64,000 nucleotides of DNA from NCBI GenBank assembly GCA_964016885.1, contig OZ024744.1, forward strand, positions 66,960,001-67,024,000, read 5' to 3'. A program made the translations under genes and the position numbers. This DNA is from Eledone cirrhosa. Lineage: Eukaryota. Below, in pieces: positions 43,869 through 44,338 of the stretch. The stretch's first letter is position 1; each line of letters opens with the position of its first letter. The notes under the pieces are model-generated. The model was not told the origin of the DNA and ran no database searches. It worked only from the letters and a program-made list of their open reading frames with translations.

Positions 43869-44338
43869 AAAAGAAATAGGATTTCGCTTCAAGCATAGCT
43901 TTATACAATATGTATAAATATTTCGTATCTCCAAGGAAATACGGTTTTAGGAAGCCGTATCTATGCAAACACCGGGGGGGGGGGGGGGGGGGGGGCTAAC
44001 GCCCTCTGGTGATGTCCAGCAGAAGCAAGGGGGACAACCGTCTATGCATTTCAGGCTTAACTGGCCATCGTCAGGACGGTCCCTCCCACCGCTTGCGACT
44101 GCTGGACTAGAAGACAGCCGAGAATATATAGTTTTCTCGTCGGTGTAAATGAGCTGATTAATCTCATTTGCATATGAAGCTGCATAAGTTGGCTCAACTT
44201 ATAATGAAAAAGAAATAGGATTTCACTTCAAGCATAGCTTTATACAATATGTATAAATATTTCGTATCTCCAAGGAAATACGGTTTTAGGAAGCCGTAGC
44301 TATGCAAACACCGGGGAGCTAACGCCCTCTGGTGATGT
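43869..44338 (-). mobile_element. Retrozyme-like unit, family L: ~339-nt monomer with ~130-bp terminal direct repeat, in (TA)n
   Basis: Repeat starts 43871 and 44210; several internal hairpins; central HHR. Confidence 0.82.
44037..44080 (-). ncRNA. Minimal type I hammerhead (family L)
   Basis: ACCGUC CUGACGA U GGC CAGUUAA GCC U GAAAU GC AUA GACGGU. Confidence 0.88.

What the first reader, a model, noticed from the sequence alone, without database searches (positions are those of the whole stretch)
43869..44338. Best retrozyme/viroid-like candidate: highly structured ~339-nt monomer with a perfect minimal hammerhead
Seen: about 1.4 copies of a monomer in (TA)n with a flawless minus-strand HHR (6-bp stem I, palindromic AUGCAU stem III). 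Stem I extends into a long imperfect helix (TCCAGCAG..GCAAG / CTTGC..CTGCTGGA). Three more hairpins follow (CGAGAA/TTCTCG, TGTAAATGAG/CTCATTTGCA, ATAAGTTG/CAACTTAT), and there is no credible ORF. Inference: this size, folding and terminal redundancy fit reverse transcription more than once round a small circular RNA.
Basis: partly seen in the sequence, partly recalled or inferred. Interest (0 to 1): 0.75.

Follow-up and report, generated by a model that had tools for sequence, protein, structure and literature searches.

The report
Hammerhead retrozyme with Penelope-type ends
This is one of over a thousand genomic copies of a 323-base non-coding repeat with a predicted self-cutting (hammerhead) RNA fold, and its copies mostly end at two fixed points, so it is likely an ordinary animal retrozyme pasted in by a borrowed Penelope-type transposon enzyme, possibly from an RNA circle.

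Summary
Real, but a known kind. The insertion is 1.41 units of a 323-nt monomer (not 339: a private 22-G run inflates the spacing) in (TA)n, with one minus-strand type I hammerhead. At least 1,117 copies keep an intact core, plus 230 of an older subfamily; stems I and II show four compensatory changes between them. 128 of 171 outer 3' ends fall at two sites 39 nt apart, 67 of 104 insertions are inverted pairs, and 33 of 35 pairs with two standard ends use one site each. That is the Penelope-like (PLE) footprint, shared by ORF-bearing PLEs in this genome. Yet none of 104 insertions is attached to an ORF, and repeats inside one insertion share lineage variants, so a single unit was likely read more than once (circle or template jump). 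Verdict: a new family of non-LTR retrozyme, likely PLE-mobilised; not a viroid. Cleavage, expression and circularity are untested; the partner PLE was not found. This scan had already noted the same two-armed footprint in other retrozyme families of this genome.

The parts
43869..44338 (-). Whole insertion: 1.41 head-to-tail units (monomer positions 1-323 then 1-131; position 1 = 44338)
44016..44338 (-). One complete 323-nt non-coding unit
43869..44015 (-). Partial second unit (1-131); 3 substitutions and a 16-nt G-run expansion against the first
44036..44081 (-). Type I hammerhead: stem I 44075-44081 with 44036-44042, CUGACGA 44068-44074, stem II and loop 44053-44067 (U-U at base in this copy), GAAA 44049-44052, palindromic stem III 44044-44049; predicted cut after A 44043
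44016..44105 (-). Extended imperfect helix continuing stem I (44084-44105 with 44016-44034)
44119..44202 (-).
43869..43907 (-). 39-nt 'tail' between the two preferred 3' ends (monomer 92 = 43908, monomer 131 = 43869); this copy ends at the outer site. Each site has a CGAAAT motif about 14 nt upstream (43920-43925, 43881-43886)
43974..43995 (+). 22-G run private to this copy (expansion or assembly error; not resolved)
43835..43868 (.). (TA)n target at the 3' junction
44339..44428 (.). (TA)n-rich flank at the truncated 5' junction; no target-site duplication can be told in the microsatellite

Best explanation
It is a copy of a high-copy, non-coding 323-nt tandem repeat with a conserved hammerhead fold, likely a non-LTR retrozyme that a Penelope-like retrotransposon protein reverse-transcribes into TA microsatellites. 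Shown: copy number, architecture, two fixed 3' ends, covariation, no attached ORF. Inferred steps: a source locus with two or more units is transcribed; two hammerheads pair through the palindromic stem III and cut out a monomer; the monomer is ligated to a circle (or re-entered by a template jump); a PLE protein nicks (TA)n and starts cDNA 119 or 158 nt downstream of the cut site; copying runs past the ribozyme junction and stops at a random point. When both sides of the break are primed, one at each site, a head-to-head pair results. This window's copy is a one-armed product started at the outer site that ran 1.41 turns. With one hammerhead it would not release a monomer by itself and is likely a dead end.
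For: Copies: 1,117 intact-core matches, 0 for the reversed control; 230 for an older subfamily. Ends, in 99 loci chosen by the hammerhead motif alone: 128 of 171 outer 3' ends in two windows covering 36 of 323 positions; 5' ends in all 16 bins; 67 of 104 insertions inverted; of 35 pairs with two standard ends 33 mixed, 2 outer+outer, 0 inner+inner (p 1.5e-8); 104 of 128 standard ends abut TA/CA/TG repeats against 12 of 43 others. The old subfamily ends at the same two sites. ORF-bearing PLEs of this genome (713-714 aa open frames) show two alternative ends after their hammerheads and (TA)n flanks (by eye). PLE protein in vitro cuts AT-rich DNA, extends both strands and starts at two internal sites that define the 30-40 bp tail (PMC11167929). 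Selection on the ribozyme: 3 of 4 stem II pairs and 1 of 7 stem I pairs change on both sides between old and young subfamilies; 16 of 17 core positions unchanged, the other is H17 A to C. Single-unit template: at 22 variable sites the two repeats inside one run share the minor allele 98 times against 56 discordant and 716 both major; 17 rare shared variants in 80 runs against a control mean of 3.6, maximum 10 in 500. 11 of 181 runs hold two whole hammerheads.
Against: Cleavage, transcription and circularity were not tested. No partner PLE found: 94 loci of three PLE protein searches share no sequence with the monomer except one chance neighbour. Longest run was 2.3-2.4 units, so no long rolling-circle arrays were seen. 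Arm lengths in 28 simple pairs are uncorrelated (rho -0.11), giving no sign that both arms come from one molecule. Outside the ribozyme the fold has little support: 2 compensatory, 3 one-sided, 9 broken pairs, and paired and unpaired sites change at the same rate (27 of 188, 17 of 118). No A-to-G editing skew (9.9 against 9.8 per 1000). Hammerhead cleavage was dispensable for insertion in vitro, and only 1 of 9 Xenopus dimers cleaved.
Confidence: 0.72

Rival explanations
1. Same non-autonomous element and same PLE enzyme, but the template is an uncut linear multimer transcribed from a few tandem master loci; no circle is involved.
For: Uncut RNA was the main substrate in vitro (PMC11167929); runs are short; 56 discordant sites exist between repeats.
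Against: Each of several nested lineage variants reached both repeats, which needs repeated rebuilding from one unit; the hammerhead stems covary in a lineage with no ORF.
Confidence: 0.16
2. These are plain truncated terminal repeats (pLTRs) of an autonomous PLE whose ORF lies in rarer long copies.
For: End pattern, tail and inversions equal those of PLEs; retrozymes are related to pLTRs in Xenopus.
Against: Sequence upstream of the hammerhead runs into another unit, never into a shared ORF: 0 of 104 insertions; tblastn of 160 loci with five PLE queries put no ORF in line upstream. The older subfamily is built the same way. Hammerheads of the ORF-bearing families checked have long helix II, unlike this one.
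Confidence: 0.07
3. An integrated viroid-like RNA that replicates RNA to RNA.
For: Size, stable branched fold and hammerhead.
Against: No hammerhead on the opposite strand; star-like decay with symmetric DNA substitutions; fixed PLE-type ends.
Confidence: 0.02
4. A DNA-level repeat (satellite, MITE or fold-back) whose hammerhead is a relic.
For: Many copies are inverted pairs; both strands fold equally well.
Against: Polar ends (fixed 3', random 5'), dispersed copies, and compensatory changes concentrated in the ribozyme.
Confidence: 0.03

Closest known systems
Metazoan non-LTR retrozymes (coral, mussel, axolotl Rtz_331/Rtz_353; Cervera and de la Pena 2020, PMC7229834; parts 2-4 of 6 read, supplements not seen)
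   Same: Small non-coding tandem unit with a type I hammerhead, size within 150-450 bp, low GC, self-paired fold, thousands of copies; weak palindromic helix III as in HHR_Amex1 and a U-U at the base of helix II as in HHR_Amex2.
   Different: Unrelated family as far as tested (no sequence comparison was possible); mostly 0.5-2 units in inverted pairs rather than long arrays; circular RNA not shown here; fixed 3' start sites are not described in the parts read.
Penelope-like elements: Poseidon PAc (Frangieh et al. 2024, PMC11167929; parts 1-2 of 4 read) and EN+ PLE insertion structure (Craig et al. 2021, PMC8557442; passages read)
   Same: Two internal start sites downstream of the hammerhead, a 30-40 bp tail at one end, inverted 5'-truncated arm, AT-rich or (TA)n targets.
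   Different: No ORF; the unit closes on itself; start sites lie 119 and 158 nt after the cut.
Retrozymes as non-autonomous PLE derivatives (Li, Clavereau and Pollet 2026, bioRxiv 10.64898/2026.07.22.740005; parts 1-3 of 5 read, supplements closed)
   Same: Co-occurrence with intact PLEs in one genome; mixture of monomers and dimers.
   Different: They link families by pLTR sequence in Xenopus; here the link is by insertion footprint and no homologous pLTR was found.
PLE minimal hammerheads (Cervera and de la Pena 2014, PMC4209133; abstract and Results read)
   Same: Palindromic helix III predicted to need a dimer.
   Different: Helix I 6-7 bp and helix II 4 bp match their canonical type, not the minimal type (helix II 7-8 bp, helix I 4-5 bp).

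Membership tests
Type I hammerhead ribozyme | Core CUGANGA, GAAA and NUH with three helices | tested here: met
   helix II closes with U-U in this copy, A-U or G-C in most relatives
Type I hammerhead ribozyme | Covariation in the helices | tested here: met
   4 double changes in stems I and II between subfamily majorities
Type I hammerhead ribozyme | Match to an Rfam hammerhead model | tested here: not met
   none up to E 10 in 43000-44400; a library miss, not a defining test
Type I hammerhead ribozyme | Self-cleavage | not testable with these tools
   needs in vitro transcription
Non-LTR retrozyme | Tandem units of 150-450 bp, each with a type I hammerhead | tested here: met
   323-nt unit; 11 of 181 runs hold two whole hammerheads; this copy holds one, so by the two-unit rule of Li et al. 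it is a monomer derivative
Non-LTR retrozyme | Non-coding and not attached to an autonomous ORF | tested here: met
   (0 of 104 insertions; sample, not census)
Non-LTR retrozyme | No LTR, PBS or PPT organisation | tested here: met
   repeat length varies from copy to copy and the hammerhead lies inside the unit; PBS and PPT were not searched for separately
Non-LTR retrozyme | Expressed as linear and circular monomers | not testable with these tools
   needs RNA data
PLE-mobilised element | Two 3' ends with a tail, inverted 5' arm, AT-rich target | tested here: met
PLE-mobilised element | Sequence shared with the pLTR of an autonomous partner | tested here: inconclusive
   not found in three PLE protein searches or a sister-motif search; most PLE families of the genome were not examined
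Autonomous PLE | RT plus GIY-YIG ORF between pLTRs | tested here: not met
Viroid or viroid-like satellite RNA | RNA-to-RNA replication, usually ribozymes in both polarities (recalled) | tested here: not met
   one polarity only; replication itself not testable

The most novel reading that the evidence does not exclude
The copies are an in vivo record of a PLE protein dimer priming both sides of one DNA break from two fixed sites on a ribozyme-made RNA circle, each site set by a repeated CGAAAT motif 39 nt apart. This would tie retrozyme circles to PLE enzymes mechanistically and give a 323-nt portable template for PLE-based insertion.
Probability: 0.35. Interest if true: 0.55.

Novelty: new member of a known kind. 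Interest (0 to 1): 0.3.

Why it matters
Which enzyme spreads animal retrozymes, and whether the circle is the template, is proposed but not shown in the papers read. This family gives a small, countable test case: two defined start sites, a strict one-site-per-arm rule and a ribozyme kept under selection without any ORF. The class itself is known, and other families of this genome show the same footprint, so this copy adds an example, not a new principle.

Tried and rejected
RNA evidence: no RNA holder listed; the four runs of unknown kind gave only contigs, which confirm abundance and the majority alleles but cannot show ends, strand or circles, and skip the G run. Rfam: no hammerhead hit. 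Partner search: three PLE protein queries and 14 long stretches gave young PLE families with other terminal repeats; a pattern for sister hammerheads gave 14 old matches with no likeness to the monomer and no PLE ORF nearby. Pfam named none of five window ORFs above cut-off, so clade labels such as Neptune-like or Poseidon-like are my recall of motifs. A-to-G editing lead from earlier notes: not seen here. Both arms from one molecule: arm lengths give no support. A pile of 5' ends near one full turn was seen by eye but not counted as evidence (post hoc, AT-rich junction bias). Hammerhead conservation within the young family was not used, since loci were picked by that motif. The bacterial promoter scan is not relevant to this host. 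Literature: 'retrozyme + cephalopod', 'octopus + hammerhead + ribozyme + circular RNA' and 'hammerhead ribozyme + octopus + Penelope' listed no paper on this family; the library is incomplete and Repbase or Dfam were not available.

Full report
Observation. The stretch 43869-44338 lies between two (TA)n tracts. Its ends repeat at spacing 339, but 16 of these bases come from a 22-G run; the two repeats otherwise differ at 3 positions. The unit is 323 nt (44016-44338), followed on the minus strand by positions 1-131 again: 1.41 units. One type I hammerhead lies at 44081-44036 on the minus strand, with the predicted cut after A 44043, monomer position 296. Stem I has 6 Watson-Crick pairs and a G-U, helix II 4 positions with U-U at its base, helix III is the palindrome AUGCAU. 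By the definitions in PMC4209133 (Results read) this is a canonical metazoan type I motif that should work as a dimer. The fold beats shuffles (z -3.7; -5.1 as a circle) but so does the antisense strand (-5.6). There is no long ORF. Rfam shows no hammerhead hit.

Family. A genome search gave 1,989 first-look candidates, 40 scored. The exact core of this copy occurs 124 times, a relaxed core 1,117 times, and an older subfamily core 230 times; reversed controls gave 0. Most copies close helix II with A-U. Segments of the young, middle and old groups (145, 28 and 33) are 92, 87 and 76% identical to this copy. Between old and young majorities 3 of 4 helix II pairs and 1 of 7 stem I pairs change on both sides, and the core changes only at H17 (A to C). 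Outside the ribozyme the evidence is weak: 2 double, 3 one-sided and 9 broken pairs, with equal change at paired and unpaired sites.

Ends. The first 30 loci were picked by full-length match and are biased. I therefore counted 99 loci picked by the hammerhead motif only: 29 of the first 30 exact hits (one duplicate dropped) and 70 stretches covering most of the first 100 hits listed, all on one contig, with the loop variant over-sampled and a cluster of near-identical neighbours and hits already held left out. All such loci must contain a hammerhead, so short copies are missed. In 104 insertions, 128 of 171 outer 3' ends fall at monomer 85-100 (59, mode 92) or 123-142 (69, mode 131), windows set after seeing the first loci; 43 fall elsewhere. 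5' ends occupy every bin. 67 insertions are head-to-head pairs, 36 single runs, 1 complex. Of the 67 pairs, 33 have one end at each site, 2 both at the outer site, 0 both at the inner, 25 one standard end, 7 none (p 1.5e-8 for 33 of 35). 104 of 128 standard ends abut TA, CA or TG repeats. The old subfamily ends at the same places (by eye). Each site has CGAAAT about 14 nt upstream. So ends are not freely permuted: 3' fixed, 5' random.

This is the PLE footprint. PAc protein cuts AT-rich DNA, extends both strands and starts at two internal sites downstream of its hammerhead that bound the 30-40 bp tail (PMC11167929, parts 1-2 read). Inverted truncated arms, a tail at one end only and (TA)n bias are described in PMC8557442 (passages). 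Young PLEs of this genome, some with 713-714 aa open frames between two hammerheads, also show two alternative ends into (TA)n.

Not a plain pLTR. Upstream of the hammerhead every copy continues into more monomer, an inverted arm or unrelated flank. Shared flanks were other repeats, and tblastn of 160 loci with five PLE proteins put no ORF in line upstream. None of 94 PLE loci matched the monomer, apart from the locus where a copy lies nearby by chance. The partner is therefore unnamed.

More than one pass over one unit. In 80 runs longer than one unit, the two repeats share the minor allele at 22 variable sites 98 times, disagree 56 times and share the major allele 716 times. Rare variants are shared 17 times against 3.6 expected from other copies (maximum 10 in 500 draws). 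This copy shares one lineage variant (position 65) in both repeats. A mutation arising in one unit of a linear master would stay in that unit, so the family has been rebuilt from single units repeatedly. A circle explains this simply; a jump from the 5' to the 3' end of a cut monomer, or rare re-founding of tandem masters, also can. Against a strong rolling-circle picture: the longest runs are 2.3-2.4 units, only 11 of 181 runs hold two ribozymes, arm lengths are uncorrelated and there is no A-to-G skew.

Comparison. It works like, and meets the sequence-level tests for, a metazoan non-LTR retrozyme (PMC7229834, parts 2-4 read), whose mobilisation by PLEs was proposed there and supported by phylogeny in bioRxiv 10.64898/2026.07.22.740005 (parts 1-3 read; supplements closed and may list relatives). 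Cleavage and circular RNA remain untested. Three searches found no paper on this family. Earlier notes of this scan describe the same two-armed, two-site pattern in families of 310, 312, 422, 467 and 591 nt, and a 323-nt family that I did not compare with this one; a look-up by sequence found none. These notes are unchecked and came after my own counts.

Verdict. Real feature; new family of a known kind; interest 0.3. The 33-to-2 rule and the repeated motif are the parts worth a bench test.

Noticed in passing
window 43076-43410: Another two-armed element: 123-nt inverted arms, 99% complementary. By eye the right arm holds a plus-strand type I hammerhead with a long helix II (43276-43354: ACTCC, CTGATGA, GAAA, palindromic CTAATTAG, GGAGT), missed by my scan's length limit.
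   Followed up: no
window 3737-3828, 12270-12309, 13792-13856, 17797-18065, 29608-29689, 30544-30603, 42883-42943, 57025-57082: Ten further hammerhead motifs of at least six types in this window; three types recur at the ends of PLE copies elsewhere.
   Followed up: partly
L251-L260 (for example G000:C10:37152500-37160500): A very young PLE family with 713-714 aa open frames between hammerhead-bearing repeats 4.2-4.4 kb apart; many copies score identically. Window 30544-30603 is one of its ends. A candidate source of active enzyme.
   Followed up: partly
L263, L256, L248: A tandem hammerhead repeat of about 420-480 bp with an ACTAGT helix III, four copies in a row in L263; likely another retrozyme family.
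   Followed up: no
L266-L273, 3' region after the ORF: A PLE family with no standard hammerhead core; by eye it has a core variant beginning TTGATGG followed by GAAA and a TATATA palindrome.
   Followed up: no
window 44331-44428: The 5' flank repeats the last bases of the element and a short AAGAAATA piece that equals the element's 3' junction, in a 32-nt period array: local slippage or repeated abortive priming.
   Followed up: no
L285-L298: About eight of 14 matches form an old, diverged hammerhead family with the same palindromic helix III and a different helix II.
   Followed up: partly
G000:C1:143.35-143.80 Mb: Six hammerhead matches at 58-65 kb steps, suggesting a large segmental tandem duplication.
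   Followed up: no
window 47100-50250: Long ORFs (up to 552 aa) that look like a Helitron Rep-helicase by recalled motifs; not tested.
   Followed up: no
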